Shown here in pieces: positions 47,848 to 63,551 of a stretch of DNA of 64,000 nt (its first letter is position 1; each line of letters starts with the position of its first letter). The notes under the pieces were generated by a model. It had not been told where the DNA came from. It did not search any database and worked only from the letters and a program-made list of their open reading frames with translations. The DNA lies in the NCBI GenBank assembly GCA_031411135.1, contig JANOAN010000003.1, positions 10,614-74,613 of the forward strand, read 5' to 3'. Position numbers and translations under genes: made by a program. This stretch comes from a bacterium (lineage in GTDB: Bacteria; Patescibacteriota; Minisyncoccia; Phycocordibacterales; CAIZLB01).

Positions 47848-47882
47848 CTAAGTAAGTATTGACATTCATAACATAATATTTT

Positions 47883-48644
47883 ATGGTGTACTCGGCAAAG
47901 ATCTTTGATCTGGTCAATTGTCAGAGTAATTTCACAAACCACCAACAAGAAAGGATTATTCATATGCTAAGTAATGTCAGACACGAAAGCAAAGTAAATA
48001 CCAACGGAAGAAGTGCAGTGTGTGGTTACGCAAAAGCTGAAGAAAGGAACCATCCTGTAGCCGTAGTAATATTCATAATCATACTGGCAGCACTTACTGC
48101 CGAGTTCGTGATTATCCCTTGGAAGAACAGGACGAAGACGGCAGAAGTGACTTCGGTTCAAGTTTTACCGCTCACCTACATTGAGGAAGCACGTGTAGAG
48201 AAAACCCTCCTCGCCCTCAAAGCGTGGACGGAATCGAGCGAATCCAGAAGTAAAGTCATGGACGAGACCATTCGTCAAATGACTGACGCAGTAACGTCGG
48301 AAATCTACTGGCACCAGACGAATGAAAAGGAACGCAAGGTGCTACGAGAGGTTATCGAGGGCAAGGAGAGGAAGAATATTCCCATTCCCTCTGGACTGCA
48401 AGAAAGTCTGGCAAAGTTGGGAGACTTCGAAGCTTCGATTCCCCACCTGTGGAACAAGGACTTCAACCTCCCTTCCACACTGTCGCGACTTGAGGCGGAT
48501 AAAATCAAGACAGCCGCTGGCAAGACTGTTTATGAGAAGTTCAAGAGGTGGAGAGCAGATGAAGAAGATGTAACGAGGTACGTCCTCGGTATCGTCCCGT
48601 CTCGAGCGACCCCATTGCCCCCGCAGATCAAGAAAAAGCGCTAA
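47883..48644 (+). CDS. hypothetical protein (GC-rich), one TM
   Basis: ORF with an upstream TTGACA-like promoter at 47850 and a downstream hairpin terminator. Confidence 0.45.
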   Translation: MVYSAKIFDLVNCQSNFTNHQQERIIHMLSNVRHESKVNTNGRSAVCGYAKAEERNHPVAVVIFIIILAALTAEFVIIPWKNRTKTAEVTSVQVLPLTYIEEARVEKTLLALKAWTESSESRSKVMDETIRQMTDAVTSEIYWHQTNEKERKVLREVIEGKERKNIPIPSGLQESLAKLGDFEASIPHLWNKDFNLPSTLSRLEADKIKTAAGKTVYEKFKRWRADEEDVTRYVLGIVPSRATPLPPQIKKKR

Positions 48645-48723
48645 CGCACCGTCGCTGATGGTCCCTTCTTTGGGGCCGTCAGCGATTTTCTTTTATATGA
48701 AGTTTATGGTAATTTAAGCGAAT

Positions 48724-48798
48724 GCTCTCGTCGTTCAATGGATAGGACGTAACTTTGCGGAAGTTATGATACAGGTTCGATTCCTGTCGAGAGCACCA
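48724..48798 (+). tRNA. tRNA-Arg (anticodon reads GCG), encoded CCA
   Basis: GCTCTCG acceptor, D-arm GTTCAATGGATAGGAC, anticodon stem TAACT/AGTTA with loop TTGCGGA, T-arm ACAGG-TTCGATT-CCTGT, CGAGAGC-A-CCA. Confidence 0.7.
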
Positions 48799-48870
48799 CT
48801 AAGGCCGATGCGGAGGCCTCATATTTCTCAACGTTTTTTCGTTGTTGAAATTGAGCACCCCGCTTGGAAT

Positions 48871-50268
48871 CTAACTTTTAGGAAGGATACCTTCTTTTTG
48901 CTGTTTTTGATTGGGCTGACTTACAGGAGGTGTGTCTTTCAACAGCTCATCTGATTCAGTCTTATCAACAGATATCTTTCCATCTTTCAAAATCAATTTG
49001 CTTTTCAGGTTTACTAAAACATGACGTTGTTCGTAAATGTTGCCATCTTTCAGGAGAAACTTCATATATTTTTTGATATCAATATCTCCTAATTCCTTAC
49101 TCTCAAATCCACCTGGATCACCGATGACATCTCTGTGAAAACGATACATTCGATTTACATCCATATCCATCTGTCCTCGTACGCCGAGTTCGTTAATGGA
49201 TAATTCATCAACTATCTCACAGAGTGATTTTATGAGATCCTCCTCACGGATATATGTCATAGGACAATGATGATCTTTTGTCCTTGAACAACCATAATAG
49301 ACGTATCTCATAATAGTTCCGTCTTTCAAAGCTTTAAACTTTTCTTCAGCAGTAACACTTGAACCACAGAGTCCGCATTTAATTAAATGTGTGTAAGCAA
49401 AATCTTTTTTGTAAATCCGTGTCGCTCGTTTTTTCTTCTTCATTTCTTCTCGCACTTTATCAAAAAGTTCCTTTGTGATGAGTGGTTTATGTACACCATG
49501 GTACCAATTACCGCTTTTCTTAGGGTACTCAAACATGCCGTAATAAAAAGTTCTAGTGAGAGCTAGTTGTACACCACTTAATGCAATATGTTTTCCGTTT
49601 GGTGATCTAAAGTCTAGTTCATCAGTAAGCCAATCTCGTATACGATGTTGACTCCAACCCTCGGACGCTTTTTCAAACATCATTTGGACTATGTGTGCTC
49701 GAACTGGATCTATCTTCACAATACCTCGATTACCTTTCTCTCCAACATTCGTGTATCCCAAAGGTGCAACCCCTGGCCACAACCCTTTTTCTACAAGAGT
49801 TCTCAAACCTCTTTTTACATTTATACCTTTAGTATCATTTTCAAGTTTTGCTTGTGATCCAAGAATCATGAGTAGAAATTTCTCGTTAGGTGAGTTAGAA
49901 AAGTTTTGATTATATGTCCTGATTTCTAAAAGTTGCTTACTATCCATAAGATCAATCAGTCTACCTAGATCACCTGCATTTCGGCTAAGTCTATCTGGAT
50001 GCCACGTAAGGATTGCATTGTATTTTCCAGCCTTTATCTCGTCGATCATTTTATTAAAAACTTCACGCTCACCAGAATTTTTAGCTGAGTGGGCTTCAGT
50101 TTTTACTGTCACTACTGAAAGATGATCTCGTTCGGCAAGTTTATTCATCTCACTTATCTGAGATTCAATTGACAAAGCTTGTCGTTCTTCGTCCTCGCTA
50201 GATTTTCTGGCGTAGAGGCAGTAGATGAGGGCTGGAGATGGCACTTCTTTTACAGCAGAGTTTTCCAT
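48871..50268 (-). CDS. large serine recombinase (resolvase/invertase N-terminal catalytic domain + recombinase domain + zinc ribbon)
   Basis: 'LYARKSSEDEERQALSIESQ' catalytic Ser region, 'PLGYTN', and a 'CGLCGS...YYGCS...HHCP' Zn ribbon. Confidence 0.85.
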   Translation of the reverse strand: MENSAVKEVPSPALIYCLYARKSSEDEERQALSIESQISEMNKLAERDHLSVVTVKTEAHSAKNSGEREVFNKMIDEIKAGKYNAILTWHPDRLSRNAGDLGRLIDLMDSKQLLEIRTYNQNFSNSPNEKFLLMILGSQAKLENDTKGINVKRGLRTLVEKGLWPGVAPLGYTNVGEKGNRGIVKIDPVRAHIVQMMFEKASEGWSQHRIRDWLTDELDFRSPNGKHIALSGVQLALTRTFYYGMFEYPKKSGNWYHGVHKPLITKELFDKVREEMKKKKRATRIYKKDFAYTHLIKCGLCGSSVTAEEKFKALKDGTIMRYVYYGCSRTKDHHCPMTYIREEDLIKSLCEIVDELSINELGVRGQMDMDVNRMYRFHRDVIGDPGGFESKELGDIDIKKYMKFLLKDGNIYEQRHVLVNLKSKLILKDGKISVDKTESDELLKDTPPVSQPNQKQQKEGILPKS

Positions 50269-50309
50269 AACTCATATTTTAATAAAAATACAGATGGAAA
50301 TCTAGATAT

Positions 50310-51629
50310 TTATTCCATCATCAGCTTCTTATCCTTCAGCAATATTCTACTCTTAATACAACTTAGCACTTCTCGCTTCTGCAACATCGTCCCGTGCTGA
50401 AGCATATGCTTTGCAAATGTTTTGATTGATACGTCTTTGTGCTTCTTCGATTGCCCTAGATCCACCCCAAGCACTCCAGTCTGGAAAAGTGCATATCGTG
50501 CCACTTCTTCTTGAAGCTTCTGCTTCAGTTCTGATTTATCCATGCTCATCTTGTCTATTATCGGTAACATCTCTGATATCAATATATCCTCTTTCACTGA
50601 CTCGTTCGGACAGTCTCGATCCTTCAATTTGGTGCACCTGTAGTAGACATGAGCGTTGAAACCACCATCCTTCAATTCCTTGATCTTCTCCTCTGCTGTT
50701 ATGCCCGATTCGCAGTAGGCACAGTGGAGCATTCTGGTGAAGGCAAACTCTCTGCCGTAGGCTTTTTTCTTCTCAACCCTGATTTTGTCCTGCACCAGAT
50801 CGAAAAGTTCCTTGGTGATGATCGGTGTATGCTTGCCTGTATACCAGTCACCGCTTCCAACAGGATATTCAAACACTCCGTAGTAGAAGGTCAGCCTTAA
50901 TATTCGGTAGATATTACCTAATGTCATCGGCTTGTTGCCTCTTGTTACAAATTTCACATCTTTGAGCCACCTATATATCTTCCTACCAGAGTAGTTTTCA
51001 GTGGCTACTTTTTCAAATATTTCTTTTATGAGTGGTGCTCTTACGGGATCAACTTCCACCTGACACTTTTTATCCACATTTTTGCTGTTTAGGTATCCAG
51101 TTGGTGCTGTGCATGGCCAGAGTCCCATCTGGCATCTTGCCCTTAGGCCTCGCTTCACATTTACCACCTTATTGTCGTTCTCAAGCTTTGCCTGTGATCC
51201 TAGAATCATGAGCATAAATTTCTCATTCGGCGTGTTGCTGAACTTTTGTCCATAGGTGCGTATCTCATGAAGCTTCTTCTGATCCATCAAGTCTACGATT
51301 CTTCCAAGATCACCTGCGTTTCGTGCAATTCTATCAGGTGCCCACGTCAGTATTCCATTGAACTTACCCTGATTGATCTCATTCACGATTTCGTTGAACA
51401 CTGGTCGTTGCCCCGCTTCCTTGGCAGAATGCGACTCTTGTTTTCTTGCCACAATCTCTAATCCCTCATTAATCGCCATCTTCTCCATTTCCCGTATCTG
51501 GCTATCAATGGAGAGTACCTGCTTATCCTCCTGTTCTGTACTTTTCCTTGCGTAAAGCACGTATTTAACCCTTACAGGGATTGATATTTTGGCCTCCATC
51601 CCCACTGGCCTTTGTATTGTATGATCCAT
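50310..51629 (-). CDS. large serine recombinase, paralog of 48871..50268
   Basis: 'LYARKSTEQEDKQVLSIDSQ', 'PTGYLN', and 'CAYCESGITAEEK...YYRCTKLKDRDCP'; ~45% identical to the neighbouring recombinase. Confidence 0.85.
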   Translation of the reverse strand: MDHTIQRPVGMEAKISIPVRVKYVLYARKSTEQEDKQVLSIDSQIREMEKMAINEGLEIVARKQESHSAKEAGQRPVFNEIVNEINQGKFNGILTWAPDRIARNAGDLGRIVDLMDQKKLHEIRTYGQKFSNTPNEKFMLMILGSQAKLENDNKVVNVKRGLRARCQMGLWPCTAPTGYLNSKNVDKKCQVEVDPVRAPLIKEIFEKVATENYSGRKIYRWLKDVKFVTRGNKPMTLGNIYRILRLTFYYGVFEYPVGSGDWYTGKHTPIITKELFDLVQDKIRVEKKKAYGREFAFTRMLHCAYCESGITAEEKIKELKDGGFNAHVYYRCTKLKDRDCPNESVKEDILISEMLPIIDKMSMDKSELKQKLQEEVARYALFQTGVLGVDLGQSKKHKDVSIKTFAKHMLQHGTMLQKREVLSCIKSRILLKDKKLMME

Positions 51630-51634
51630 ACCTA

Positions 51635-51684
51635 CATTGATGACAGAGACCCTCCGAGGAGTCTAGGAGGGGTCAGTTGGTAAC
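51635..51684 (+). repeat. 50-bp direct repeat copy A (duplicate of the KAP gene RBS/start region)
   Basis: 'cattgatgacagagaccctccgaggagtctaggaggggtcagttggtaac' versus 52084..52133, about 80% identical. Confidence 0.6.
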
Positions 51685-52022
51685 TAATTTCGCTCAATCT
51701 CTGATTTTTTGCTCAATCCTTTCTCTTTAAAAAACCCGTCTATCATTTTTACGTTACCTTTCGCTCCAACGTGCCAGATGTTAACTTCGTTAACTGGAAT
51801 GATTTCTTTGTAATCGTAAATTGTTACCACTGTAGGCTTTTTATGTTTTGTTTTGAAAGACCATTCGACACGCACCTTTCCATCGCTAGATTTCCACCTT
51901 TCATCAGTAACTCTGTCGTTGGGTTTACCTAGACAACTGACAAGATGCTCGTATGAAGAAATGGTATATCCACTGAAACTTGAGCCGTTTATATCCTTTG
52001 GTTCTGCTTTGATGAATTTCAT
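51684..52022 (-). CDS. hypothetical protein (112 aa) flanked by direct repeats
   Basis: ORF bracketed by the two 50-bp repeats. Confidence 0.45.
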   Translation of the reverse strand: MKFIKAEPKDINGSSFSGYTISSYEHLVSCLGKPNDRVTDERWKSSDGKVRVEWSFKTKHKKPTVVTIYDYKEIIPVNEVNIWHVGAKGNVKMIDGFFKEKGLSKKSEIERN

Positions 52023-52083
52023 ATGTTTTTTGCTTGTTAATTCGGCCTACGTCAGAGTCACTTGTAGCGGGTTTTCACAAACA

Positions 52084-52133
52084 CATTGATGACGCAGACC
52101 ACTTAGGAAGTCTAGGAGGGGTGAGTTGGTAAT
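52084..52133 (+). repeat. 50-bp direct repeat copy B, containing the AGGAGG RBS and TTG start of the KAP NTPase gene
   Basis: 'cattgatgacgcagaccacttaggaagtctaggaggggtgagttggtaat'. Confidence 0.6.
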
Positions 52134-54897
52134 TTTTAGCCTTAAAAACTTAGTAAATAGGCAATTTTTATGGTATAATGTTGTCATCATGTCAGAAGAC
52201 GAGCAAGATAAAATCAGCAAATGGGACACGCCTTCCAAGAAGGACATGTTCGGCCGTGAGCCGTTTGTAGATACGATAGTAAAAACAATCCAATCGTCTC
52301 AAGAAGGCTTTAACTTGGGTGTCTCTGCTCGATGGGGAGAAGGTAAATCATCAATCTTAGAACAGCTCCAGCCAAAACTAGAAGAGTTGAATTACAAAGT
52401 CTTAACTTTTTCTCCTTGGAAATATACACAGGACAATATATCAATTAAAAGAAAGTTTATAATCGATATCTACTCCCAACTTGGAGAGGATTATGATGAT
52501 ACTGAACTATACAGTTCAACAGAAAGTCAGAAAGAACTAAAAATTGATGCTTACGATAGTATATTTTTTAATAGACTCGGAATTTTTATTCGCTACGGCC
52601 TAACGGTATCTATTTTATTTTTGGCAGTTCTTTTTATTATAAAGTATTGGTTTGGATTTACAATAAATATTACACAGACTTTTTCCACCAATTTATTTAT
52701 TCCTATACTTGCAGCACTTTTACCCATTGTCACAAAAATTACAGAAGTGACGGTAAAACATACAACCCCAAAAATAGAATCTGCCGAGCAATTTGAAAAA
52801 AGATTTAATGACGTTATAAACGGAATAATGGGCACCCATAAATCGCCGGGGAAAATAATCATTTTTGTCGATGATCTTGATCGATGCAATCATGTTGAAG
52901 TTGAACAGATACTTACAGCTTTATTTACATTTTTCAACAATAAGCATTGTACTTATGTGATTACAGCTGATCACACTGTTATTCGAAGATATATAAGTAG
53001 TTTCTTAAAGCTAGAAAACGATCTTAAAGATGATGGAACGGTAGATATGAAAAAGACAGAAGAGACTAGACAAAAAGAGGCGACGGAATATTTAAAAAAG
53101 ATTTTTCAGATTAACTTTATTGTTCCAAGGATACCTAGTGATCTACTTGAACCTTGGATAAGTGACCTACTGAAGGCCAGTCCTGTTATTGAGTTCAAGA
53201 ACCATTACGCAAAAGATTATTTAGTAAACCTCATACTTAATAATTTTCAGGGCAATCCCAGAAAGATAAAGCACTTTATTCGAACTTTAGCATTCCAATT
53301 AGAAGCAATTAATGAAAAAATCCAATGTCTTGCGGATCAAAAGGTAGATGAGAGTAAAAACCTCAACAAGGTTAAGGATTCTCCAGAGCTTTTAGCAAAA
53401 ATACTCATTCTCCAAGATAGGTTCCCTAACTTTTACGAGAAGATCGTATTAGAGCCAAAGCTTTTACAAAGACGTGAAGCTGGCGAGATGGATGAAGACA
53501 AAGAATTACAGAACCTTCTTGCTCAAGAGCCAAAATTCTTTAATTCGCTGACTCGTAATTCTACTCTGAAGACTATCGACCCTTATTACTTCCTGTACTT
53601 CTCAGGATCGACTGGCTTCGTGGAAACTGCTGTAGTCGACCCAGCGGAGGTCAAGGCTCTTGCAAGAAGTGCAGACTTTGACGGACTCACAAAAATAATT
53701 CGAGGTTTGACCGATGAGCCGAGAAACATGCAAGTTGAACATATAAAGCTTGAATTTGATTCTCCACAAATACAACCACCTGAAAAAGTAAATATTGTAA
53801 GAAGTCTTTTCCATACAGTTACTTTAATAGAAGAACCCAGCCTCAGACTCCAAAAGCTTAAAGAAATTCTTGATAATAAGACAAAGTACAAGCTTGAATT
53901 TGCATCCTTGCAGTCGGTTGATTTTGGAAACTTTATAACTTTTGCAGATATTGATGTAATAAACAAACTTTTTGTAGGTACTCCTTTCACAGATATTGCA
54001 ATGCAGACTCAAATTCTTAGTGCATTTATAAGCAAGCAAGATGAAATAAAAAATGTTGATGTTCTAAAAAAGTTTATTCAAGTTATTGCCACTGGCATTT
54101 CTAAGAACGATGCCAATTCTCAATCTTATCTAATATTGGCAAAAAAGATAAGTGATAAAAACTTTCTTGATGCAGATACGCTTCAGAATAGTTTGATTGA
54201 AACATATAAAAAGGCTCCCGATCCTTTAAAACAGGAACTTTTTGATACATTGCTTGATATTAAACCAAAGTTATCTGCACCAAAGCAACAGGAATTTGAA
54301 GAGATAATTCTAGCTGTTATTGAAAAAGACCCTATCGCCGAAAGTCTTGCGATGATTGGCAATATTCCTGTGAAGATTAATAAATCTAAATTAAGTATGT
54401 CGAAAGTCACTTCAGTAGTGAACAAAAGAATTTCTAGTTCAACAGATGTTGAAATTGCTCAGCTTGCAAATATTATGCTTCATCAAGCTATAAAAGATGA
54501 GCTTGGTCCAGATAATACAGAGCTAACACTCATTACTCTGGTCGAATTACTTGATTCTAAGGATCAACCAACGATAGCACTCATAAGAGGACGCCTTCCT
54601 GAATTCATAACTCATTCGACTAATAAGTCAAAGTTGCTAGATCAAGTATTGAAATCTGTAGAAACTGGCCCCCTTACGGAAAGTGCTCAAACGATGGATA
54701 CCTTGAAGAGCATGGATGATTTCTGGAACACCAATCCTTTTTTAAAAAAGGAACTTGTATCTAAATTGAAAGCTTCTTTGAAATGGATCGTGGATAAGGA
54801 TATAAAAAGTTTAGTAACAAAAAGTTTGGGAGAACTCGATCCTCCTCCTGAGCCCAAGAAGAAAAAAGAGTCCACTGAGCCTGCACCAGATAAATAA
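52126..54897 (+). CDS. KAP-family P-loop NTPase
   Basis: Walker A 'GEGKSS', two TM helices inserted before Walker B 'IIIFVDDLDRC' (the KAP hallmark); 923 aa. TTG start with AGGAGG 6 nt upstream. Confidence 0.75.
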   Translation: MVIFSLKNLVNRQFLWYNVVIMSEDEQDKISKWDTPSKKDMFGREPFVDTIVKTIQSSQEGFNLGVSARWGEGKSSILEQLQPKLEELNYKVLTFSPWKYTQDNISIKRKFIIDIYSQLGEDYDDTELYSSTESQKELKIDAYDSIFFNRLGIFIRYGLTVSILFLAVLFIIKYWFGFTINITQTFSTNLFIPILAALLPIVTKITEVTVKHTTPKIESAEQFEKRFNDVINGIMGTHKSPGKIIIFVDDLDRCNHVEVEQILTALFTFFNNKHCTYVITADHTVIRRYISSFLKLENDLKDDGTVDMKKTEETRQKEATEYLKKIFQINFIVPRIPSDLLEPWISDLLKASPVIEFKNHYAKDYLVNLILNNFQGNPRKIKHFIRTLAFQLEAINEKIQCLADQKVDESKNLNKVKDSPELLAKILILQDRFPNFYEKIVLEPKLLQRREAGEMDEDKELQNLLAQEPKFFNSLTRNSTLKTIDPYYFLYFSGSTGFVETAVVDPAEVKALARSADFDGLTKIIRGLTDEPRNMQVEHIKLEFDSPQIQPPEKVNIVRSLFHTVTLIEEPSLRLQKLKEILDNKTKYKLEFASLQSVDFGNFITFADIDVINKLFVGTPFTDIAMQTQILSAFISKQDEIKNVDVLKKFIQVIATGISKNDANSQSYLILAKKISDKNFLDADTLQNSLIETYKKAPDPLKQELFDTLLDIKPKLSAPKQQEFEEIILAVIEKDPIAESLAMIGNIPVKINKSKLSMSKVTSVVNKRISSSTDVEIAQLANIMLHQAIKDELGPDNTELTLITLVELLDSKDQPTIALIRGRLPEFITHSTNKSKLLDQVLKSVETGPLTESAQTMDTLKSMDDFWNTNPFLKKELVSKLKASLKWIVDKDIKSLVTKSLGELDPPPEPKKKKESTEPAPDK

Positions 54898-54956
54898 TCA
54901 AATGTTGGCAACCCATGCTTCGCAAGTCTATATTTTTAAGCTAAGATTCTTCTAAC

Positions 54957-55778
54957 ATGGCAAAGAAAATTTTGACTAACATAAAACAAAAACCTCACTT
55001 CTCTCACAGGGATTTTGTTCTGTATCTTGGCAATTCAACCGATATCCTCAATGAGCTTCCAGAAAATTCCATAGATATGATTTTTGCAGATCCTCCATAC
55101 ATGCTTTCAAACGGAGGATTCACTGTTCATGCAGGAAAGATGGTAAGTGTTGATAAAGGAGACTGGGACAAAAGCAAAGGATTTGATAGCGACTACTCAT
55201 TTCATAGAAAATGGCTAGAGGCCTGCTATCGAGTCCTCAAACCCCAAGGAACCATTTGGGTTAGTGGAACATATCATTCAATCTATCAATGTGGTCACGC
55301 TATTCAGTCTATCGGTTTTCATATTCTCAATGATATAAGTTGGTTCAAGCCGAACGCTTCGCCGAATTTAAGCTGTAGGTTTTTTACAGCCAGTCACGAG
55401 ACATTGCTCTGGGCTAGGAAACATAAAAAAGCAAAGCACACGTTCAATTATGAATTGATGAAAGGTGGAGAATGGTCTGAAGATTTTATTAAAAAACCAA
55501 ATCTACAGATGCGTTCTGTATGGGCAATTAATCCACCCAAAAAAGAAGAGAAAAAATTTACCAAGCATCCGACACAAAAACCACTTTCACTTCTAGAGAG
55601 GATTGTTCTCGCAAGTACAAACAAAGGAGATATAATCCTTGATCCTTTTACCGGTAGTTCCACAACAGGAATCGCTGCTAAAAAACACGGACGAAAGTTT
55701 ATCGGTATTGATACTGAGGAGAAATACTTAGCTCTTTCTCAAAAACGCTTTCAAGATTTAGTCGAGGCTGGTAATTGA
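54957..55778 (+). CDS. DNA N6-adenine methyltransferase, beta class (DPPY before FxGxG), M.DpnIIB/DpnA-like
   Basis: 'IFADPPYM' at aa ~43 and 'ILDPFTGSSTTG' near the C-terminus; 273 aa. Confidence 0.8.
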   Translation: MAKKILTNIKQKPHFSHRDFVLYLGNSTDILNELPENSIDMIFADPPYMLSNGGFTVHAGKMVSVDKGDWDKSKGFDSDYSFHRKWLEACYRVLKPQGTIWVSGTYHSIYQCGHAIQSIGFHILNDISWFKPNASPNLSCRFFTASHETLLWARKHKKAKHTFNYELMKGGEWSEDFIKKPNLQMRSVWAINPPKKEEKKFTKHPTQKPLSLLERIVLASTNKGDIILDPFTGSSTTGIAAKKHGRKFIGIDTEEKYLALSQKRFQDLVEAGN

Positions 55779-56616
55779 CTATTACTACTTCGGATATCTT
55801 TCCTCTCTTGTCAGATTTTGAATTAATCATTCGGCTAGCATATACAGGAATCTGCTTATAGCCAGAATATATTTCCTTAATGAATGGTGCACTAGAATTA
55901 CTAAGCATTACATATACGCCCTTTTTATCTAGCTCGATAAATAAATCTCTAAGCTTTATTTGATCATCCTTAGAGAAACTATCTTTACTATAACTTGTAA
56001 ATGATGATGTCTCTGATAAAGGATGGTACGGGGGGTCGAAGTATACAAAGTCTCCAGCCTTAGCATTTTTCACAGCATCAGCAAAGGATCCACTAGTAAT
56101 TTTTGTATGAGAAAGCATCTCAGATACAAGTTTTAGGTTTTCTTCGTCCACAATCTTTGGATTCGTATAGCTTCCCATAGGAACATTAAATCCACCCTTT
56201 GAGTTTTCTCTATAGACACCATTGAAGGCTGTCTTGTTTAGAAAAAGAAAGTATAGACTCTTTTTGAAATCGTCAGCAGGGAGTGAATTATACTTTTCTC
56301 TGATTGAGTAATAAAACTCTTTTCTTTCTTCTGTATTTTTTGATATAAAATCTTTCTCAATTTTTCTTAAAGACTTAATCAATTCGCCAACATTATCTTT
56401 GATGTTTTTATAGGTTTGAACTAGAGTCTTGTTCACATCGTTTATGTGAGCCTTCTTTGGATTCAATGCAAAGAATACCGCACCTCCACCGATAAACGGT
56501 TCAAAATACGAATTGTACTTTTGGGGAAAGAGAGCATCTAACTGTGTCAAAAGCTGGGTCTTACCCCCAACCCATTTAAGGAACGGCTTAGCTTTCTTAG
56601 AAATATCTATCTTCAT
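55699..56616 (-). CDS. Dam-family DNA adenine methyltransferase (alpha class), M.DpnIIA/DpnM-like, probable GATC specificity
   Basis: 'LKWVGGKTQL', 'FEPFIGGGAVFF' and 'FVYFDPPYHP'. Confidence 0.8.
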   Translation of the reverse strand: MKIDISKKAKPFLKWVGGKTQLLTQLDALFPQKYNSYFEPFIGGGAVFFALNPKKAHINDVNKTLVQTYKNIKDNVGELIKSLRKIEKDFISKNTEERKEFYYSIREKYNSLPADDFKKSLYFLFLNKTAFNGVYRENSKGGFNVPMGSYTNPKIVDEENLKLVSEMLSHTKITSGSFADAVKNAKAGDFVYFDPPYHPLSETSSFTSYSKDSFSKDDQIKLRDLFIELDKKGVYVMLSNSSAPFIKEIYSGYKQIPVYASRMINSKSDKRGKISEVVIVNYQPRLNLESVFEKELSISPQYQYR

Positions 56617-56696
56617 GTATTGATTTTATCATTTTTTGATACCGATTCCTATCTTTCATTGTTCTAAGCCCTATTTTGTGATTTAATTGCATTATT

Positions 56697-57230
56697 ATGA
56701 AAGTCGGAGGTATCGGAGGAACAAACACAAAGTCGGGGCTACACTTTGAAGGAAAGGTGGATTTTCTCGAGGCCCTCAAAATAGTAAAGGGCTATGAAAT
56801 AAAGGATGACGGGTCTATCCTTTTCGAAGGTAAGGTTGTAGCTCTCAATCTCCGAAAATACAAGCTCTACGAATTTCTAGAAAGTAAAGGTGTTAATCAC
56901 AAAGAAATACTTTCAAAACGTCTTCTCCCTGATGATGCTATCTTGGTACTCAACACGAATTCATTTTACGTAATTGAAATTAAATTCCAACAGGTTGCTG
57001 GTTCTGTGGACGAAAAATTGCAGACATGCCATTTCAAAAAGAGACAGTACGAAAAATTGATGAATTCACTCGGTGTAAAAGTGGAATATATCTACATCTT
57101 AAGTGACTGGTTCCAAGCTCCTGCGTACAAGGATGTTCTCGCTTACATTAAAGAGGTTGATTGCGATTATTTCTTCGAAGAAATAACTCTAAACCGTCTC
57201 GGGCTCCCATCTCCAACAGAGACTATCTAA
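56697..57230 (+). CDS. putative PD-(D/E)xK restriction endonuclease (short; DpnII/MboI-like catalytic core)
   Basis: 'DDAILVLNTNSFYVIEIKFQQVAGSVDEKL' resembles the R.DpnII 'DFVIKNEQVLYLIEVNFYSGSGSKLNE' core. Only 177 aa, so it lacks the DpnII N-terminal domain. Confidence 0.4.
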   Translation: MKVGGIGGTNTKSGLHFEGKVDFLEALKIVKGYEIKDDGSILFEGKVVALNLRKYKLYEFLESKGVNHKEILSKRLLPDDAILVLNTNSFYVIEIKFQQVAGSVDEKLQTCHFKKRQYEKLMNSLGVKVEYIYILSDWFQAPAYKDVLAYIKEVDCDYFFEEITLNRLGLPSPTETI

Positions 57231-57846
57231 ATCCTGGCATTGCTGATTGAAGTACTTCTGTATAGTGTTTCTTGTCGTCGATATAATCTCTAAGCGTAAG
57301 TAGTAGGTTTTTAAACATATAAGCCTCGGTATAAATCTTTTCATTCTTGCAGAAAAGTTCAATCATTATCGCAACGTAATCTAAAGACAGGGTGTAATCC
57401 TGCTCAATGTGTGCATACTTTTGTGTAATCTCATCAACGGTTTCAAGTTTATAGTTATTCCTATCTTCAACCGATGCGAAAGGCGTAGTTCTCTCATAAA
57501 AATCAATGTAGTACTGAACTATCTCTCGAACGTCTTTGCGATACTGAGGGATTTTCAGAAGAAGATCGACAACCCAAAATGTATGAGTCGGCGGTGTCAT
57601 TATTTTGTTCACTCCTGGCACGAGAATTTTTACTACGAAATCAATATCTGGTCTTGCACCTCTACTTCCTTGAAATAGACCAATCAAAGTTCCGTCTTTT
57701 GTGACATATGTCTTAAAAGCAGTTAGACGAGGTCTCAGTTGAGCGAGATTAGTTCCATCATAATATCTAGAGTTGTATTCGTGTGACATTACAGAAAGTA
57801 TAGCAAAAGCTAGGCTGTTGGTAACTAGAGCTTCGCAACCCTCCAT
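57223..57846 (-). CDS. hypothetical protein (207 aa)
   Basis: ORF convergent with the nuclease gene (8-nt overlap). Confidence 0.45.
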   Translation of the reverse strand: MEGCEALVTNSLAFAILSVMSHEYNSRYYDGTNLAQLRPRLTAFKTYVTKDGTLIGLFQGSRGARPDIDFVVKILVPGVNKIMTPPTHTFWVVDLLLKIPQYRKDVREIVQYYIDFYERTTPFASVEDRNNYKLETVDEITQKYAHIEQDYTLSLDYVAIMIELFCKNEKIYTEAYMFKNLLLTLRDYIDDKKHYTEVLQSAMPGFR

Positions 57847-57930
57847 ATCTAAGCTAAGGTACAGACAGATACCTCAGTTTTTGGTATCATGGTAATCACA
57901 ACAAAGACCTAACCCCTAGAAAACCCTTAG

Positions 57931-58015
57931 TTTCCTAGGATATGGTCGTAATAAAAACCGCTACAGTATAGAAGACTCCTCGTCAGAGTCACTGTAGCGG
58001 TCGCGTCTAGGAAAC
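57931..58015. repeat. nested inverted-repeat element (outer TTTCCTAGG/CCTAGGAAA, inner CCGCTACAGT/ACTGTAGCGG, innermost GACTC/GAGTC)
   Basis: Direct reading. A third CCGCTACAGT copy lies at 58117..58126, and 'cgtcagagtcacTtgtagcgg' recurs at 52050..52070. Confidence 0.55.
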
Positions 58016-58131
58016 TGGATGTGGGTTGAGCCGAAAGGTTCGATCACAATGGCGAGGGGTCTTCTGTCTCAAGGCTCAAAACTCCTCGCCACTTATTATT
58101 AGTTAATAAGCTTAAACCGCTACAGTGGCTT

Positions 58132-59091
58132 ATGAAAAATCAAATAAGGCGTATTCCGCCATCTGGCTACTTAATTGTAGTTCTGTTTCTAGTAACTTTA
58201 ATATTTCCAAAACACGCAAATGCAACATCAGGATCATGCTCATACCACGGAGGTGTCGCATGTAGTCTCAGGTCGGATTATGACGGCAGTGTAATTTGCA
58301 ACGACGGATGGAAAGATAGTTCAGTATCATTTTCAAATGCAGATGAGTGCAAAACATCCTTACCGTCATGCCCCTTACCTTCAGGTGCGAAATCTGATTG
58401 TGGCTCACTCCGTGCACAACTTGCACGAGGACAGTTGCTCGGCACTACGTTTGGAGACAATGAGCTAGCTCAGTGCGATGCTCAGAATACAACCTACGAT
58501 TCTGCCCAGTCTGCATATCAACAATGTCTTACTTCGCAGTCAGCAATACAATCTCAACAATTTAATAACTACGTGGATCAAAGTAAAACTCAAGATCAGG
58601 CTTTTAATCAGCAGATGCAGACCAAGTACGACGCATACTGTGTTTCATCACAAGGTGTAGGAAGTGTCTGGGTTGGCGAATTCGGTCCGAACGGATCATG
58701 TAAACCAACTAATTCTGATTTCTGGAAATCGTGTCAGGGAAAAATGGGTACAAATGCAACGTACGATAAATCTTCGGGGTATTGTACTTGTTATAGCGGA
58801 TACGTTGTAGATGGAGACAATCAATGTGTAACAGAAGTTCAGCCAAGCATCCAAACTCCAGATGTTCCACAGACACAACCTGTTGTCACTACTCCCATAC
58901 AAAAAGTAATTGCAGTAAAAAAGCCGATAACTAAACCGACCGTCGTTCCAGTCGTATCTGAACAATCTACTACAACCATAGCTCAACCCATTGTCACAGA
59001 TACTCCTACCGTCAAACCTATTGAAGATAAAAGCTGGTTTGGTTCACTGTTTGAAAAAATAGGAAGCTTCTTTACTAATCTATTCCACTAA
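58132..59091 (+). CDS. secreted cysteine-rich protein with a Thr/Pro/Val/Gln-rich C-terminal region
   Basis: Signal peptide 'LIVVLFLVTLIFPKHANA', 18 Cys in the first 230 aa, then 'PVVTTPIQKVIAVKKPITKPTVVPVVSEQSTTT'. Confidence 0.55.
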   Translation: MKNQIRRIPPSGYLIVVLFLVTLIFPKHANATSGSCSYHGGVACSLRSDYDGSVICNDGWKDSSVSFSNADECKTSLPSCPLPSGAKSDCGSLRAQLARGQLLGTTFGDNELAQCDAQNTTYDSAQSAYQQCLTSQSAIQSQQFNNYVDQSKTQDQAFNQQMQTKYDAYCVSSQGVGSVWVGEFGPNGSCKPTNSDFWKSCQGKMGTNATYDKSSGYCTCYSGYVVDGDNQCVTEVQPSIQTPDVPQTQPVVTTPIQKVIAVKKPITKPTVVPVVSEQSTTTIAQPIVTDTPTVKPIEDKSWFGSLFEKIGSFFTNLFH

Positions 59092-59094
59092 AAC

Positions 59095-59472
59095 ATGCCT
59101 AAAACCGTAGTCCACATCGATGATGATAAATTCCTTCTCAACATGTACGACATCAAATTGAGACGTGCTGGCTGTAGTGTGTACGCATTCCAGACTTTTG
59201 ATTCAAAAATTGTCGAGGATATTGCAAAGTGCAAGCCTGACATTATTGTTTCTGATATAGTCCACGACCCAAAAGACCCTGATGGCATTGAACTCTGTAG
59301 GCAGATGCAAAAAGATGAAAGGCTCAAGAATGTTCCGTTCGTCTTTTTGTCGAATACTCTTGGGTATTTAAAGAAGGTTGATATTTCAGATTTGAAGATC
59401 GCCAAACAGATAGAGAAAGCTACGACTCAGCCTGATGACGTGATAACTCAAATCCTTAACATAATAAAATAA
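59095..59472 (+). CDS. single-domain response regulator (CheY-like receiver)
   Basis: 'VVHIDDDKFLLNMYDIKLRRAGCSV...KPDIIVSDIVHDP' with the phospho-acceptor Asp in 'IIVSDI'. Confidence 0.65.
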   Translation: MPKTVVHIDDDKFLLNMYDIKLRRAGCSVYAFQTFDSKIVEDIAKCKPDIIVSDIVHDPKDPDGIELCRQMQKDERLKNVPFVFLSNTLGYLKKVDISDLKIAKQIEKATTQPDDVITQILNIIK

Positions 59473-59481
59473 GCTAGTTTT

Positions 59482-59877
59482 TTATCCTTGAAAATCTACC
59501 TGAAATCTATACATTCCCATTCCGCATGTTCCGTTTAAGGTTGCAACCTGTGGACTTCCTATATCAATATCTGTCGTTCCAGACTGAGGAAGTGACTTTG
59601 AAATATTCATACTTGGAATACGCACAGTTGAAGAGCAGTCGAATGTTCCATTGGTATCGAACCTAAGGATGCTTGGCACACCCGCCTTTGCAATACTGCT
59701 TCCTGGTTGGTATCCGCCCTTGGCATGAATCTCAATAATCTGTTTTCCGTCTACAATTGAGACATTGTTTGCGTTAGCGACTTGACCAGAACCTTTGGTA
59801 TTCGCATTTTTTGCAAACATAAATGCTCCTCCGATTAATACGACCGCCACGATAATTGATATAGTTGTTGCTTTCAT
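59482..59877 (-). CDS. small secreted protein (possible cupredoxin-like metal-binding protein) in the copper locus
   Basis: N-terminal TM/signal sequence; adjacent to the HMA-membrane and CopA genes. Confidence 0.4.
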   Translation of the reverse strand: MKATTISIIVAVVLIGGAFMFAKNANTKGSGQVANANNVSIVDGKQIIEIHAKGGYQPGSSIAKAGVPSILRFDTNGTFDCSSTVRIPSMNISKSLPQSGTTDIDIGSPQVATLNGTCGMGMYRFQVDFQG

Positions 59878-59890
59878 AAAGATGATTATA

Positions 59891-60916
59891 CTAAAAATTA
59901 AAGACTGGTGGAATGACCCCGATCACCACTAAACTGTTAATAAGGTTAAAGATTGCAAACATGATGACTACCAGCCCTGCTGACTTGAAGAATATGCCTG
60001 ACTTAGAGCTATTCTTGATACTGAACGAACTGAAGCTTACCAAGGCTAGTACAGGTAATGTCCCTAAAGCGAATGACAGCATTGTTAATCCTCCTTTTAG
60101 GAAACTGCCTGTAGTAAGTGTGTAAAGTTGCATTGATTGTGTAAATCCACACGGCAGAAAAAATGTAGCAATACCAACAAGGAGAGGTGTAAGAGTATGA
60201 TTAAACTTCGAAACATCAAGTGCATGCTTTGACATAAATTTCGGCATTGAGGGCTGTAGTTTTTTAGCCCACTGGAATACATCAAGAAGATTGATTCCAA
60301 GTATGAGCATAACAATTCCGATTATGAGACTTAAGGCAAATGATGCATTGGTACTTAAGGTGAATGCAGAGCCGATTGCACCTATCACTCCTCCGAGAAT
60401 AAAAAATGAGACTATTCGTCCGCCGTGGAACATGAGCTGTGGACGAATTTTGTCTCCTTCTTTTGCAAATGTTGCCGACATCGAAAGAACTATCCCTCCG
60501 ACAACAGCCATACAAGTTGAAAGTGAAGCAATGATACCGATTACAAATGCCGTACCATAAGTTACGTTGCCTCCACCCACAAGATTAATTAAACCAATTT
60601 TTTGCAGACCGAAAAACAGGACTGCAAAGCCTAATGCGATAGGTACAGCAATTTTAAAATCTGCCCAGTTCTTTTGAACCACTCGTTTTTCTATAGAAAC
60701 AGTATAACCATGAGGCTTGAGTGGAGCAGTAAGCTCCTCTGCGATCTGTTCAGGTGTCTTATCACCAAAATTTCCAGAAACTTCCACCGAATGATTCTTG
60801 AGACTTGCTTTAACAAAACTAATATTAGACAGCTCTCCAAGCTCACTTTCGGTCATAAGAACACAAGCGTTGCAATGTATACCGTGAATATGAAAAGTGT
60901 ATTTTTGTTCAGTCAT
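59891..60916 (-). CDS. heavy-metal-associated (HMA) domain fused to a polytopic membrane permease-like domain
   Basis: 'GIHCNACV' metal-binding motif, then about eight TM helices. Start trimmed to the ATG at 60916 ('MTEQKYTFHIHG') to remove a 77-nt overlap with copA. Confidence 0.6.
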   Translation of the reverse strand: MTEQKYTFHIHGIHCNACVLMTESELGELSNISFVKASLKNHSVEVSGNFGDKTPEQIAEELTAPLKPHGYTVSIEKRVVQKNWADFKIAVPIALGFAVLFFGLQKIGLINLVGGGNVTYGTAFVIGIIASLSTCMAVVGGIVLSMSATFAKEGDKIRPQLMFHGGRIVSFFILGGVIGAIGSAFTLSTNASFALSLIIGIVMLILGINLLDVFQWAKKLQPSMPKFMSKHALDVSKFNHTLTPLLVGIATFFLPCGFTQSMQLYTLTTGSFLKGGLTMLSFALGTLPVLALVSFSSFSIKNSSKSGIFFKSAGLVVIMFAIFNLINSLVVIGVIPPVFNF

Positions 60917-60920
60917 AAAT

Positions 60921-63215: not shown

Positions 63216-63218
63216 ATT

Positions 63219-63551
63219 CTATTTTCTTTTAAGCCTATACACCTTAAGTATTTCTCCAATAGCCGTTTTTTCTTTCCCTTTCTGCATTTGTTTTACAACG
63301 CAAGTGCTCAGGTGATTTTCCATCAGAGCATCTTCAATGGTTGAAAGTGCCTGCTTTACGGCAGACGTTTGAGTTATGACATCAATACAATATGCATCTT
63401 TTAAGAGCATGTCCTGTAGACCTCTCACTTGACCCTCAACAATTTTTAACCGTCTAACCAGCTTTTGTTTTGCCTCATTCATATTATATATAATACCCCC
63501 TAGGGGGTATATGTCAATATTTAAGTATTGAAGTGTTTGTATAGAAACCAA
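63219..63551 (-). CDS. csoR: CsoR/RcnR-family metal-sensing transcriptional repressor
   Basis: ~110 aa helical protein; 'RLKIVEGQVRGLQDML...DAYCIDVITQTSAVKQAL' matches the CsoR W-X-Y-Z fold with its Cys/His ligands. Sits immediately upstream of copA. Confidence 0.7.
   Translation of the reverse strand: MVSIQTLQYLNIDIYPLGGIIYNMNEAKQKLVRRLKIVEGQVRGLQDMLLKDAYCIDVITQTSAVKQALSTIEDALMENHLSTCVVKQMQKGKEKTAIGEILKVYRLKRK

What the first reader, a model, noticed from the sequence alone, without database searches (positions are those of the whole stretch)
48724..58015. ~9 kb island beside tRNA-Arg: tandem large serine recombinases (ccrAB-like), KAP NTPase and a DpnII-like double-methylase R-M module
Two paralogous large serine recombinases sit side by side immediately 3' of tRNA-Arg. 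This is the arrangement of ccrA/ccrB in SCC elements and of some clostridial ICEs. Cargo: a 923-aa KAP P-loop NTPase with its TM insert, often defence-island associated; a beta-class N6-MTase and an alpha-class Dam MTase arranged convergently; a short PD-(D/E)xK nuclease; and two unknowns. Together these indicate a mobile defence island.
Basis: partly seen in the sequence, partly recalled or inferred. Interest (0 to 1): 0.65.

Follow-up and report, generated by a model that had tools for sequence, protein, structure and literature searches.

The report
Serine-recombinase island at a tRNA gene
This is the recombinase end of a mobile element inserted at a tRNA-Arg gene of a tiny-genome (CPR/Patescibacteria) bacterium; it carries a restriction system and belongs to a large, apparently undescribed family that uses serine rather than tyrosine recombinases at tRNA genes.

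Summary
tRNA-Arg(GCG) is followed by two intact, co-oriented large serine recombinases (LSRs). Then come a KAP NTPase with a transmembrane insert, a beta-class and a DpnM-like adenine methylase, and a small PD-(D/E)XK nuclease.

Relatives with the same tRNA-Arg and left flank lack the island and run straight into msrA, rpsT, ruvA and fpg. The same LSR pair (94%/81% identity) sits beside tRNA-Lys elsewhere with different cargo.

Three points need correction:
- **Right boundary.** Position 58015 falls inside a LOOT RNA gene. LOOT and its downstream genes are internal cargo of related elements. No tRNA-fragment repeat occurs within 24 kb, and a terminase/methylase module typical of these elements lies about 20 kb away. 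The element is probably at least 24 kb, or composite.
- **"ccrAB-like".** This describes the arrangement only.
- **The nuclease.** It is not DpnII-family. The methylase-methylase-nuclease trio is a mobile cassette found across phyla.

The wider result: in 37 of 68 CPR loci this LSR family converges on a tRNA gene. Small elements are bounded by repeats running from the tRNA T-loop to its 3' end. tRNA targeting by serine integrases was called unreported in the literature I found.

The parts
48724..48798 (+). tRNA-Arg(GCG): host attachment-site gene, intact, with its 3' end facing the recombinases
   Evidence: ARAGORN and Rfam tRNA at 62 bits. Its 5' 45 nt are identical in 19 metagenome contigs. 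Sequences of relatives diverge immediately after ...GAGAGCAC.
48799..48870 (.). Spacer between the tRNA and LSR-1. It contains the hairpin GGCC-GATGCGGA-GGCC followed by ATATTT, and is the candidate element-side att arm.
   Evidence: About 65-75% identical to the tRNA-Lys/LSR spacer of L003/L011, although the tRNAs differ. L006 has a differently sequenced hairpin at the same place.
48871..50268 (-). LSR-1: large serine recombinase, 465 aa, catalytic Ser23
   Evidence: Pfam Resolvase+Recombinase+Zn_ribbon. Closest solved structure is SPbeta SprA. 94% identical to L003_457. Its clade (>=71% identity) has a second LSR within 10 kb in 5 of 6 loci.
50310..51629 (-). LSR-2: large serine recombinase, 439 aa, catalytic Ser30. 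It belongs to the clades that usually stand alone next to tRNA genes.
   Evidence: Pfam. 81% identical to L003_439 and 58% to the single LSR beside tRNA-Gln in L116.
51634..51683 (.). Conserved region upstream of the LSR (copy 1 of a 50-nt direct repeat)
   Evidence: Repeat D1, 80% identical copies. It matches the region upstream of LSR-2 homologues in L003/L004/L005.
51684..52022 (-). 112-aa ORF of unknown function, co-oriented with the LSRs; candidate accessory or directionality factor
   Evidence: 59% identical homologue in the L003/L011 tandem-LSR element. No family hit in Pfam, NCBIfam, PADLOC or PHROGs.
52083..52132 (.). Copy 2 of the LSR-upstream repeat, here upstream of the 112-aa ORF
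   Evidence: 78% match to the region upstream of the LSR in L116.
52189..54897 (+). KAP-family P-loop NTPase (902 aa from the ATG; 923 aa from TTG at 52126) with two transmembrane segments between Walker A and Walker B
   Evidence: PF07693 at 93 bits. Hydrophobic segments at residues 150-210 and Walker B at 244. No homologue in any other fetched locus.
54957..55778 (+). Beta-class N6-adenine methylase (DPPY motif before FxGxG)
   Evidence: PF01555 at 210 bits. Best solved relative is CcrM, 6PBD, 211 bits. 88% identical in L116 and 87% in L039.
55699..56616 (-). Alpha-class Dam/DpnM-like methylase
   Evidence: PF02086 at 232 bits and TIGR00571 at 306 bits. Best solved relative is DpnM, 2DPM, 256 bits, against E. 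coli Dam at 145 bits.
56697..57230 (+). 177-aa PD-(D/E)XK nuclease, the probable restriction enzyme of the methylase pair
57223..57846 (-). ORF of unknown function (207 aa; probably 188 aa starting at 57789). It is not part of the conserved R-M cassette.
   Evidence: A family of about 91 representatives, aligning from residue 20 or so. No Pfam or PDB hit. The single-sequence model is unusable, pLDDT 38.
57906..58045 (+). LOOT RNA (RF03000), a structured RNA that recurs inside LSR elements
   Evidence: 52.7 bits against a gathering score of 46.4. The 340-nt block 57804-58142 is 82% identical to L116 15072-15410. LOOT is also in L006, L009 and L039 and in 18 of 80 genome LSR loci.
58132..59472 (+). 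Genes downstream of LOOT: a 319-aa Cys-rich protein with an N-terminal hydrophobic segment, and a 125-aa receiver-like protein. Probable cargo.
   Evidence: The 319-aa protein has a 25% homologue directly after LOOT in L116. The 125-aa protein has a 35% homologue downstream of LOOT in L037. Response_reg scores 29.6 bits, just under cut-off.
59482..63551 (-). Copper module (cupredoxin-like, HMA/DsbD_2, CopA-type P-type ATPase, CsoR-type repressor). Membership of the element is possible but unproven.
   Evidence: Pfam labels of the called genes in L110/L001. It lies between the LOOT genes and the terminase/methylase module found beyond the window, at about window-equivalent 68.5-73.0 kb.

Best explanation
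The 48.7-58 kb stretch is the recombinase-proximal arm of an integrated mobile element in a Paceibacteria (CPR) genome. The element belongs to a very large CPR family in which a large serine recombinase gene converges on the 3' end of a tRNA gene.

**Integration (inferred).** The LSR recombines an element site, which carries a copy of the tRNA from the T-loop to the 3' end, with the chromosomal tRNA. This leaves an intact tRNA next to the LSR and a 17-25-nt tRNA-fragment repeat at the far end. That layout is shown for small relatives. It is inferred here, where the far repeat is not within reach.

**The two recombinases (inferred).** This element carries a two-LSR module. LSR-2 belongs to the clades that normally stand alone at tRNAs. 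LSR-1 belongs to a clade that almost always co-occurs with a second LSR. LSR-1 is therefore probably a partner or second-site recombinase.

**Cargo next to the recombinases.**
- A stand-alone KAP NTPase of unknown role.
- A three-gene, probably GATC-specific R-M cassette: a DpnM-like methylase, a beta-class methylase and a small PD-(D/E)XK nuclease. The cassette moves as a unit between elements and phyla.
- An unknown ORF.
- A LOOT RNA followed by a secreted protein gene.

**Extent.** The element most likely continues past the window end to a methylase-methylase-TerS-TerL module about 20-24 kb from the tRNA. It would then be at least 24 kb and look like a phage satellite or degenerate prophage rather than a 9-kb island.
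For: **Family-wide tRNA association**
- Of 68 evaluable genome loci, 37 have a tRNA on the opposite strand within 2 kb downstream of the LSR stop.
- None has only a same-strand tRNA there, and none has a tRNA within 2 kb upstream.

**tRNA-fragment repeats**
- Exact or near-exact direct repeats running from the tRNA T-loop to its 3' end bound or accompany elements in L049 (20 nt, 4.6-kb element), L054, L051 and L083.

**Insertion polymorphism**
- L104 and L106 (157-aa neighbour 91% identical) and L109 and L103 have the same tRNA-Arg without any LSR.
- In L104 and L103 it is followed directly by housekeeping genes.

**Module mobility**
- The window and L011 share only the block LSR-2 promoter to tRNA spacer (75-86% DNA identity).
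- Their cargo and their tRNA differ.
- LSR-1 clade members have a second LSR nearby in 5 of 6 loci, against 2 of 75 other loci.

**R-M cassette**
- It is 77% identical at DNA level in L116, next to a single LSR and tRNA-Gln. It also occurs in L039.
- The same trio occurs in Helicobacter.
- In Neisseria gonorrhoeae a DpnI/'dam-replacing' gene sits beside degraded copies of the beta methylase and the nuclease.
- The Dam-like enzyme is closest to DpnM.

**Extent**
- LOOT plus its downstream genes are conserved inside other LSR elements.
- ParB-MTase/MTase-TerS-TerL modules lie next to LOOT and the LSR in L039, L042, L044, L020, L009 and L116.
- A homologous module lies at window-equivalent 68.5-73.0 kb.
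- There is no msrA/rpsT/ruvA/fpg and no tRNA-Arg 3' fragment up to 73.2 kb.
Against: - The distal end was not found, so the 24-kb extent rests on architecture shared with other loci, not on a junction.
- Copper-resistance and two-component genes lie between the LOOT genes and the terminase module. They have no counterparts in other LSR loci and could be host DNA between two separate elements.
- In L120, a related genome, the terminase module lies on the other side of tRNA-Arg, and that tRNA has no LSR. The module can therefore exist apart from a tRNA-Arg LSR insertion.
- No portal, capsid or tail genes were seen.
- Near-identical LSR-1 enzymes sit beside tRNAs whose T-loop-to-3' segments differ at 6 of 20 positions. 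Which LSR reads the site is open.
- Three LSR-1 clade members (L009, L012, L074) have no nearby tRNA.
- No recombination, excision or methylation has been observed. GATC is only mildly depleted, observed/expected 0.80.
Confidence: 0.6

Rival explanations
1. A self-contained island of about 9.3 kb (tRNA-Arg to about 58.1 kb). LOOT RNA lies at or near its distal end, and the downstream copper genes are host DNA.
For: - All recognisable defence or mobility genes inside the window lie between 48.8 and 57.9 kb.
- In several small loci LOOT sits right next to the LSR, so it can be near an element edge (L042, L026, L063).
- The copper module has no counterpart in other LSR loci.
Against: - No tRNA-Arg 3' repeat or inverted-repeat partner lies near 58 kb. 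Alignment scores are at shuffle level.
- LOOT, the 319-aa homologue and the 125-aa homologue are followed by more element genes in L116 and L037.
- The genes right of 58 kb are not those that follow tRNA-Arg in relatives.
Confidence: 0.17
2. A composite, partly decayed hotspot. Two or more elements accreted at tRNA-Arg and lost their internal att sites: an LSR-pair defence islet, a LOOT/secreted-protein unit, and a terminase/methylase element. The region may no longer move as one unit.
For: - tRNA-Arg(gcg) is a variation hotspot. Four close relatives have four different sequences right after the tRNA.
- Tandem tRNA-fragment scars occur in L014, L051 and L098/L101.
- The R-M trio, LOOT unit and terminase module occur in different orders and orientations in different loci.
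- The LSR-upstream region is duplicated around the 112-aa ORF.
Against: - No internal tRNA fragments lie between 48.8 and 73.2 kb.
- Both LSR genes are intact, and the LSR module is 75-86% identical to that of L011, so it spread recently.
Confidence: 0.2
3. The two recombinases are DNA invertases or resolvases that regulate local genes, for example phase variation of the R-M system or KAP gene. They would not be integrases.
For: Source databases label relatives 'DNA invertase Pin-like'. Serine recombinases next to defence genes can act as invertases (literature titles).
Against: - Both have the Recombinase and Zn-ribbon domains of large serine integrases.
- No significant inverted repeats flank any segment.
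- The strong tRNA convergence and the tRNA-fragment direct repeats fit integration.
Confidence: 0.03

Closest known systems
tRNA-integrating genomic islands and prophages (Islander/TIGER type)
   Same: The integrase gene lies next to an intact tRNA. The element is absent from close relatives. In small family members, direct repeats of the tRNA 3' part bound the element (L049, L054). Cargo is variable and includes defence genes.
   Different: The integrase is a large serine recombinase, not a tyrosine recombinase. Mageeney et al. 2020 (PMC7192596) found tRNA use by only 14 of 297 serine integrases and stated it had not been reported before. Here it is the rule for a whole CPR clade. The distal repeat of this particular element was not found.
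SCC elements with ccrA/ccrB (Staphylococcus)
   Same: Two adjacent, co-oriented large serine recombinase paralogues at the end of an island that sits at the 3' end of a conserved host gene. LSR-1 clade members nearly always come with a second LSR.
   Different: Not Ccr orthologues: NCBIfam scores are 119/122 against 900 for CcrB and 53/49 against 700 for CcrA. Both hit CcrB best and are 48% identical to each other. The target is a tRNA gene, not rlmH. The host is a CPR bacterium.
DpnII restriction-modification cassette of Streptococcus pneumoniae (dpnM, dpnA, dpnB), and the neisserial dam/drg locus
   Same: A DpnM-like alpha methylase, a second beta-class methylase and one nuclease. In Neisseria gonorrhoeae, homologues of the beta methylase and the nuclease lie beside the DpnI-family 'dam-replacing' gene. 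This echoes the DpnI/DpnII cassette exchange.
   Different: The nuclease is a 177-aa PD-(D/E)XK protein (PF20472-like), not DpnII/MboI family. The genes are not co-oriented; the methylases converge and overlap. The beta methylase is closer to CcrM than to the chains deposited as DpnA. GATC specificity is inferred, not shown.
SPbeta SprA and other phage serine integrases
   Same: Closest solved structures. Same three-domain layout, with the catalytic Ser aligned.
   Different: Only distant similarity (E about 1e-13). No identified directionality factor; the 112-aa ORF is only a candidate. Targets a tRNA rather than a protein-coding gene.

Membership tests
Large serine recombinase (serine integrase) | N-terminal resolvase catalytic domain with the nucleophilic Ser and the DRxxR motif | tested here: met
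   PF00239 at 76 and 75.5 bits. YARKS Ser23/Ser30 and DRLSR/DRIAR. Ser23 aligns with the SprA RRS serine.
Large serine recombinase (serine integrase) | Recombinase domain plus zinc-ribbon domain C-terminal to the catalytic domain | tested here: met
   PF07508 at 49.6 and 58.5 bits. PF13408 at 33.4 bits (LSR-1, above cut-off) and 23.4 bits (LSR-2, just below 25.3). CxxC is present in both.
Large serine recombinase (serine integrase) | Demonstrated attP x attB recombination with a central crossover dinucleotide | not testable with these tools
   Only indirect evidence: tRNA-fragment repeats in relatives.
SCC ccrA/ccrB recombinase pair | Orthology to CcrA and CcrB (NCBIfam equivalog cut-offs) | tested here: not met
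   CcrB model scores 118.9 and 122.5 against cut-off 900. CcrA model scores 53.4 and 49.2 against 700.
SCC ccrA/ccrB recombinase pair | Integration at the 3' end of rlmH (orfX) | tested here: not met
   The neighbour is tRNA-Arg(gcg).
SCC ccrA/ccrB recombinase pair | Two adjacent, co-oriented LSR genes that travel together | tested here: met
   A 41-nt spacer here. The same pair occurs in L003/L011.
tRNA-integrating genomic island | Present/absent polymorphism at the same tRNA in related genomes | tested here: met
   L104, L106, L109 and L103 lack it.
tRNA-integrating genomic island | Direct repeat of the tRNA 3' segment at the distal end | tested here: not met
   No match with 4 or fewer mismatches in 18 nt between 48.8 and 73.2 kb, apart from chance-level hits. 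The repeat is met in relatives L049, L054, L051 and L083.
DpnII-type R-M system | DpnM-like alpha-class GATC methylase | tested here: met
   2DPM at 256 bits and E 5e-75. TIGR00571 at 306 bits against cut-off 115.
DpnII-type R-M system | Second, beta-class (DpnA-like) methylase | tested here: inconclusive
   The class is beta (PF01555, motif order). The best solved relative is CcrM at 211 bits. Chains deposited as DpnA score 109 bits. Specificity is unknown.
DpnII-type R-M system | DpnII/MboI-family endonuclease | tested here: not met
   The only Pfam match is PF20472 at 21.4 bits. There is no DpnII family match. The fold is a generic type II PD-(D/E)XK fold.
DpnII-type R-M system | GATC recognition | not testable with these tools
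   Indirect evidence only: DpnM similarity, the neisserial DpnI/drg neighbourhood, and GATC observed/expected 0.80.
KAP family P-loop NTPase | P-loop domain with transmembrane helices inserted between Walker A and Walker B | tested here: met
   PF07693 at 93 bits against cut-off 20. Hydrophobic segments at residues 150-210 and Walker B at 244.
Qat anti-phage system | QatA orthology plus QatB/C/D neighbours | tested here: not met
   QatA scores 71 bits against cut-off 600. No Qat partner hits in PADLOC.
LOOT RNA (RF03000) | Covariance-model score at or above Rfam's gathering score | tested here: met
   52.7 bits against 46.4, covering model positions 1-121 in full. The stems co-vary, and the terminal hairpins have GNRA/UNCG loops in five aligned copies.
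Prophage or phage satellite | Packaging genes (TerS/TerL) in the element | tested here: inconclusive
   TerL (phrog_38, E 4e-75) and a TerS-like gene lie at window-equivalent 68.5-71 kb. Whether they belong to the same element is unproven. No capsid, portal or tail genes were seen.

The most novel reading that the evidence does not exclude
A large CPR/Patescibacteria-wide clade of large serine recombinases has specialised in tRNA genes. Crossover would fall within the segment from the T-loop to the 3' end, so the element restores the tRNA. This is a serine-recombinase counterpart of the classic tyrosine-integrase strategy. These elements form one modular family: LSR or LSR pair, defence cargo, a LOOT RNA driving a secreted 'moron' gene, and a methylase-TerS-TerL packaging module. 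They may be phage satellites of CPR bacteria. LSR-1 would act as an obligatory partner recombinase.
Probability: 0.4. Interest if true: 0.75.

Novelty: new variant of a known kind. Interest (0 to 1): 0.6.

Why it matters
- **Serine integrases at tRNA genes.** Serine integrases are prized genome-engineering tools and are textbook non-users of tRNA sites. A big natural clade that targets conserved tRNA 3' segments would widen the known target range. It would also offer attB sites present in almost any genome.
- **Mobile elements of CPR bacteria.** These organisms are mostly uncultivated, and their mobile elements and phage defences are poorly known. This family gives a handle on both.
- **LOOT RNA.** An orphan Rfam motif gains a genomic context.
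- **A new GATC-type R-M lineage.** The trio of DpnM-like methylase, beta methylase and small PD-(D/E)XK nuclease is widespread. It links CPR elements, Helicobacter, lactic-acid-bacterial plasmids and the neisserial dam/drg locus.

Tried and rejected
**Repeats and boundary searches**
- Repeat searches and Smith-Waterman alignment of the tRNA/spacer against 51.6-64 kb gave only shuffle-level scores.
- A fuzzy search for the tRNA-Arg 3' 18-23 nt up to 73.2 kb gave only matches with 4-6 mismatches inside coding sequence.
- A 14-nt match between window 57929-57942 and L003 about 991-1004 looked like a shared element end. Alignment showed no further similarity, so I treat it as chance.

**Reaching past the window**
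- The 100%-identical methylase P0121 is 'not on record', so that route past 73.2 kb failed.
- The 319-aa protein is also not on record.
- The Logan contigs break inside the tRNA. This may reflect k-mers shared with other tRNAs, so I did not count it as evidence.

**Motif counts**
- GATC is mildly depleted (0.80) and GANTC is at expectation, so the counts do not decide specificity.

**Viral collections**
- One IMG/VR contig (L122) carries a related LSR and tRNA-Ser but no structural phage genes.
- The TerL protein found nothing in viral contigs.

**The 207-aa ORF**
- No Pfam, PADLOC, PHROG, NCBIfam or PDB hit, no plasmid hit, and an unusable AlphaFold model.

**Literature**
- Searches found no description of CPR serine recombinases at tRNA genes.
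- The LOOT supplement of Weinberg et al. 2017 is not held.

Full report
**1. What is there**

The window comes from a CPR/Patescibacteria genome. Close homologues of its proteins are labelled Candidatus Paceibacterota.

- ARAGORN places tRNA-Arg(gcg) at 48724-48798(+).
- Seventy-two bases downstream, on the opposite strand and converging on the tRNA 3' end, lie two large serine recombinase genes 41 nt apart: LSR-1 (48871-50268) and LSR-2 (50310-51629). Both match Resolvase and Recombinase above the Pfam cut-offs. The Zn-ribbon match is above cut-off for LSR-1 and just below for LSR-2. They are 48% identical.
- Both keep the YARKS nucleophile and the DRxxR motif. LSR-1 Ser23 aligns with the active-site serine region of SPbeta SprA, the closest solved structure.
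- Next comes a 112-aa ORF, flanked by a 50-nt direct repeat at 51634-51683 and 52083-52132 (80% identical).
- Then a KAP NTPase with two hydrophobic segments between Walker A and Walker B.
- Then a beta-class N6_N4 methylase and an alpha-class Dam-type methylase, which converge and overlap by 80 nt.
- Then a 177-aa PD-(D/E)XK protein and a 207-aa ORF.

**2. Is it mobile and tied to the tRNA?**

I scanned metagenome contigs for the first 45 nt of this tRNA and obtained 19 loci.

- L104, L106 and L109 share the left flank. The DUF2339 protein is 67-72% identical where it is covered, and the 157-aa protein is 76-91% identical.
- In every one, the sequence diverges from the window immediately after ...GAGAGCAC, the end of the tRNA.
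- None of these close relatives has a recombinase there.
- In L104 and L103 the tRNA is followed directly by msrA, a bPH_2 membrane protein, rpsT, ruvA and fpg.
- Four close relatives have four different sequences after the tRNA, so this is an insertion hotspot.

The LSR pair itself moves.

- A Paceibacterota MAG (L003/L011) carries LSR-2 and LSR-1 homologues (81% and 94% identity) in the same order and spacing. There they sit beside tRNA-Lys(ttt), with unrelated cargo: a diversity-generating retroelement, a PIF1 helicase and a methyltransferase.
- DNA similarity between the two loci is confined to the block from about 60 nt upstream of LSR-2 to the tRNA.
- L006 has an LSR-1-like gene followed by a third-clade LSR and then tRNA-Arg(gcg).

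**3. The family-wide pattern**

A scan of species-representative genomes with LSR-1 returned 80 loci, almost all from CPR lineages.

- Among the 68 loci with enough downstream sequence, 37 have a tRNA gene on the opposite strand within 2 kb of the LSR stop codon, and 16 within 300 nt.
- No locus has only a same-strand tRNA there, and none has a tRNA within 2 kb upstream.
- The tRNAs vary: Ser, Gln, Trp, Arg, Asn, Lys, Gly, Glu.
- Several loci keep a second copy of the tRNA 3' end:
  - L049 has an exact 20-nt repeat (GAATCC...GCCA) 4.6 kb away that encloses the LSR.
  - L054 has a 17-nt repeat 5.9 kb away.
  - L051 and L083 have 24-25-nt repeats.
  - L014 and L098/L101 have tandem scars.
- The repeats start in the T-stem or T-loop and run to the 3' end.

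These elements therefore integrate inside the tRNA gene and restore it, as tyrosine-integrase islands do.

The literature I could search treats this as unusual. Mageeney et al. 2020 (PMC7192596) found tRNA use by 14 of 297 serine integrases, said it had not been reported, and asked for experimental proof. I found no paper describing it for CPR bacteria.

**4. The two recombinases**

- Proteins at least 71% identical to LSR-1 form a tight clade: the window, L011, L012, L074, L009 and L006. All other hits are 58% identical or less.
- Five of these six loci hold a second LSR within 10 kb. In three it is adjacent. In L009 and L074 it is 6-8.5 kb away and faces outward.
- Only 2 of the other 75 loci hold a second LSR.
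- LSR-2 groups with the clades that normally stand alone next to tRNAs, for example 58% identity to the L116 LSR beside tRNA-Gln.

I infer that LSR-2 is the tRNA integrase type and that LSR-1 is a partner or second-site recombinase. That is an inference only.

The resemblance to ccrAB lies in the arrangement. Both proteins score far below the Ccr equivalog cut-offs, and both hit CcrB best.

The 112-aa ORF has a 59% homologue in the L003 element and nowhere else. It is a candidate accessory factor.

**5. The R-M module**

- The Dam-type methylase is closer to DpnM (2DPM, 256 bits) than to E. coli Dam (145 bits).
- The beta methylase is closest to CcrM (211 bits).
- The 177-aa protein belongs to a family of about 3,900 proteins of roughly 175 aa across many phyla. 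They are 55-60% identical to it, with invariant D79, E94 and K96.
- Its neighbours are consistent:
  - The same trio with the same convergent overlap, 77% identical in DNA, lies in L116 next to a single LSR and tRNA-Gln. It also occurs in L039.
  - Helicobacter has the nuclease, a beta methylase and a Dam methylase together.
  - A Leuconostoc plasmid has a Dam methylase next to the nuclease.
  - N. gonorrhoeae has a DpnI-family 'dam-replacing' gene followed by a split beta methylase and a truncated nuclease.

The trio therefore works like a DpnII-type, probably GATC-specific, double-methylase system, and it is itself a mobile cassette. The nuclease is not DpnII-family, and the specificity is unproven. 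GATC is only mildly depleted in the window (0.80).

The 207-aa ORF is not part of the cassette and remains unknown.

**6. Where the element ends**

Position 58015 lies inside an Rfam LOOT RNA at 57906-58045 (52.7 bits against a gathering score of 46.4).

- The 340-nt block around it is 82% identical to a block in L116. In both loci a homologous secreted protein gene follows.
- The next gene, a 125-aa receiver-like protein, has a homologue downstream of LOOT in L037.
- LOOT also occurs in L006, L009 and L039. A profile of five copies finds it in 18 of 80 genome LSR loci. In 15 of these it lies upstream of the LSR on the opposite strand.
- Beyond LOOT these loci typically carry a small secreted or surface protein gene and then a ParB-methylase or methylase, TerS and TerL module.

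Using a Logan contig that extends the window to position 73,215, I found the following, in order:

- copper-resistance genes;
- a two-component system;
- DUF347, PAP2 and DUF2127 genes;
- TerL (phrog_38, E 4e-75), a TerS-like gene and two methylases. These four are 42-74% identical to the module that lies between the two LSRs of L009.

No tRNA-Arg fragment and no msrA/rpsT/ruvA/fpg appear up to 73.2 kb.

The simplest reading is an element of at least 24 kb whose distal end lies just beyond my reach. A composite of several elements, or host DNA between two elements, cannot be excluded. In L120 a related terminase module lies on the other side of a tRNA-Arg that has no LSR.

**7. Verdict**

The 9-kb boundary, the ccrAB label and the DpnII-family nuclease are not supported. 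The KAP protein's defence role is untested.

The most interesting outcome is family-level. A CPR-wide group of serine-recombinase elements targets tRNA genes, carries LOOT RNA and defence cassettes, and often carries a terminase module.

Noticed in passing
window 57906-58045 (+); also L006 8767-8882, L009 8886-9006, L039 4366-4491(-), L116 15173-15314: LOOT RNA (RF03000) recurs inside serine-recombinase elements of CPR genomes. A profile of five copies finds it in 18 of 80 LSR loci, and in 15 of those it lies upstream of the LSR on the opposite strand. A small secreted or surface protein gene usually follows it. Its terminal hairpins co-vary and carry GNRA/UNCG loops.
   Followed up: partly
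window 47856-48706 (ORF 47883-48644): An insertion of about 850 nt sits between the 157-aa gene and tRNA-Arg. It holds a 253-aa ORF with its own terminator-like hairpin. It is absent from close relatives L104, L106 and L109, where the tRNA follows the 157-aa gene within about 20-40 nt. The ORF has no family hit and no homologue in any fetched locus.
   Followed up: partly
window 51634-51683 and 52083-52132: A 50-nt direct repeat (80% identical) flanks the 112-aa ORF. It corresponds to the conserved region upstream of LSR genes in L003 and L116, so the regulatory region seems to have been duplicated when the 112-aa gene was acquired.
   Followed up: partly
L110 194-4700 (window-equivalent about 68.5-73.0 kb, outside the window): A methylase(426 aa)-methylase(252 aa)-TerS-like-TerL(703 aa) module with no capsid or portal genes nearby. 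Homologous modules lie next to LSRs in L009, L039, L042, L044 and L116, and at a contig end in L120.
   Followed up: partly
L080, L082-L085, L087-L089: In a distant branch of the LSR family (33-41% identity), the stop-to-stop reading frame of the recombinase runs 27-81 nt into the antisense strand of the adjacent tRNA gene. The 3' end of the gene would then cross the attachment site.
   Followed up: no
L014 13881-13900 and 14060-14079; L098 274-293; L101 1339-1358: Extra copies of the last 18-20 nt of tRNA-Arg(gcg) lie downstream of the tRNA with no recombinase nearby. In L014 there are two, spaced about 180 nt apart. They look like scars of earlier insertions.
   Followed up: no
L111 2197-4456 (Neisseria gonorrhoeae chromosome, filed as a plasmid record): Downstream of leuS lies a DpnI-family 'dam-replacing' gene, followed by a frameshifted beta-class methylase (55% identical to the window's) and a truncated homologue of the 177-aa nuclease (46%). 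None of these is listed among the record's annotated features in the collection searched.
   Followed up: partly
L003 1030-2432: The sister element with the 94%-identical LSR-1 carries a diversity-generating retroelement (bAvd plus reverse transcriptase) and a PIF1 helicase as cargo.
   Followed up: no
window 47374-47847 and loci L091-L109, L120: A 157-aa membrane protein with no family hit is adjacent to tRNA-Arg(gcg) in nearly all relatives. It lies upstream on the same strand in some and downstream on the opposite strand in others. This linkage survives rearrangement.
   Followed up: no
L116 10547-14531: In L116 the R-M trio is followed by a CHAT protease gene and a 980-aa protein, where the window has the 207-aa ORF. 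This may be another defence-type cargo slot.
   Followed up: no
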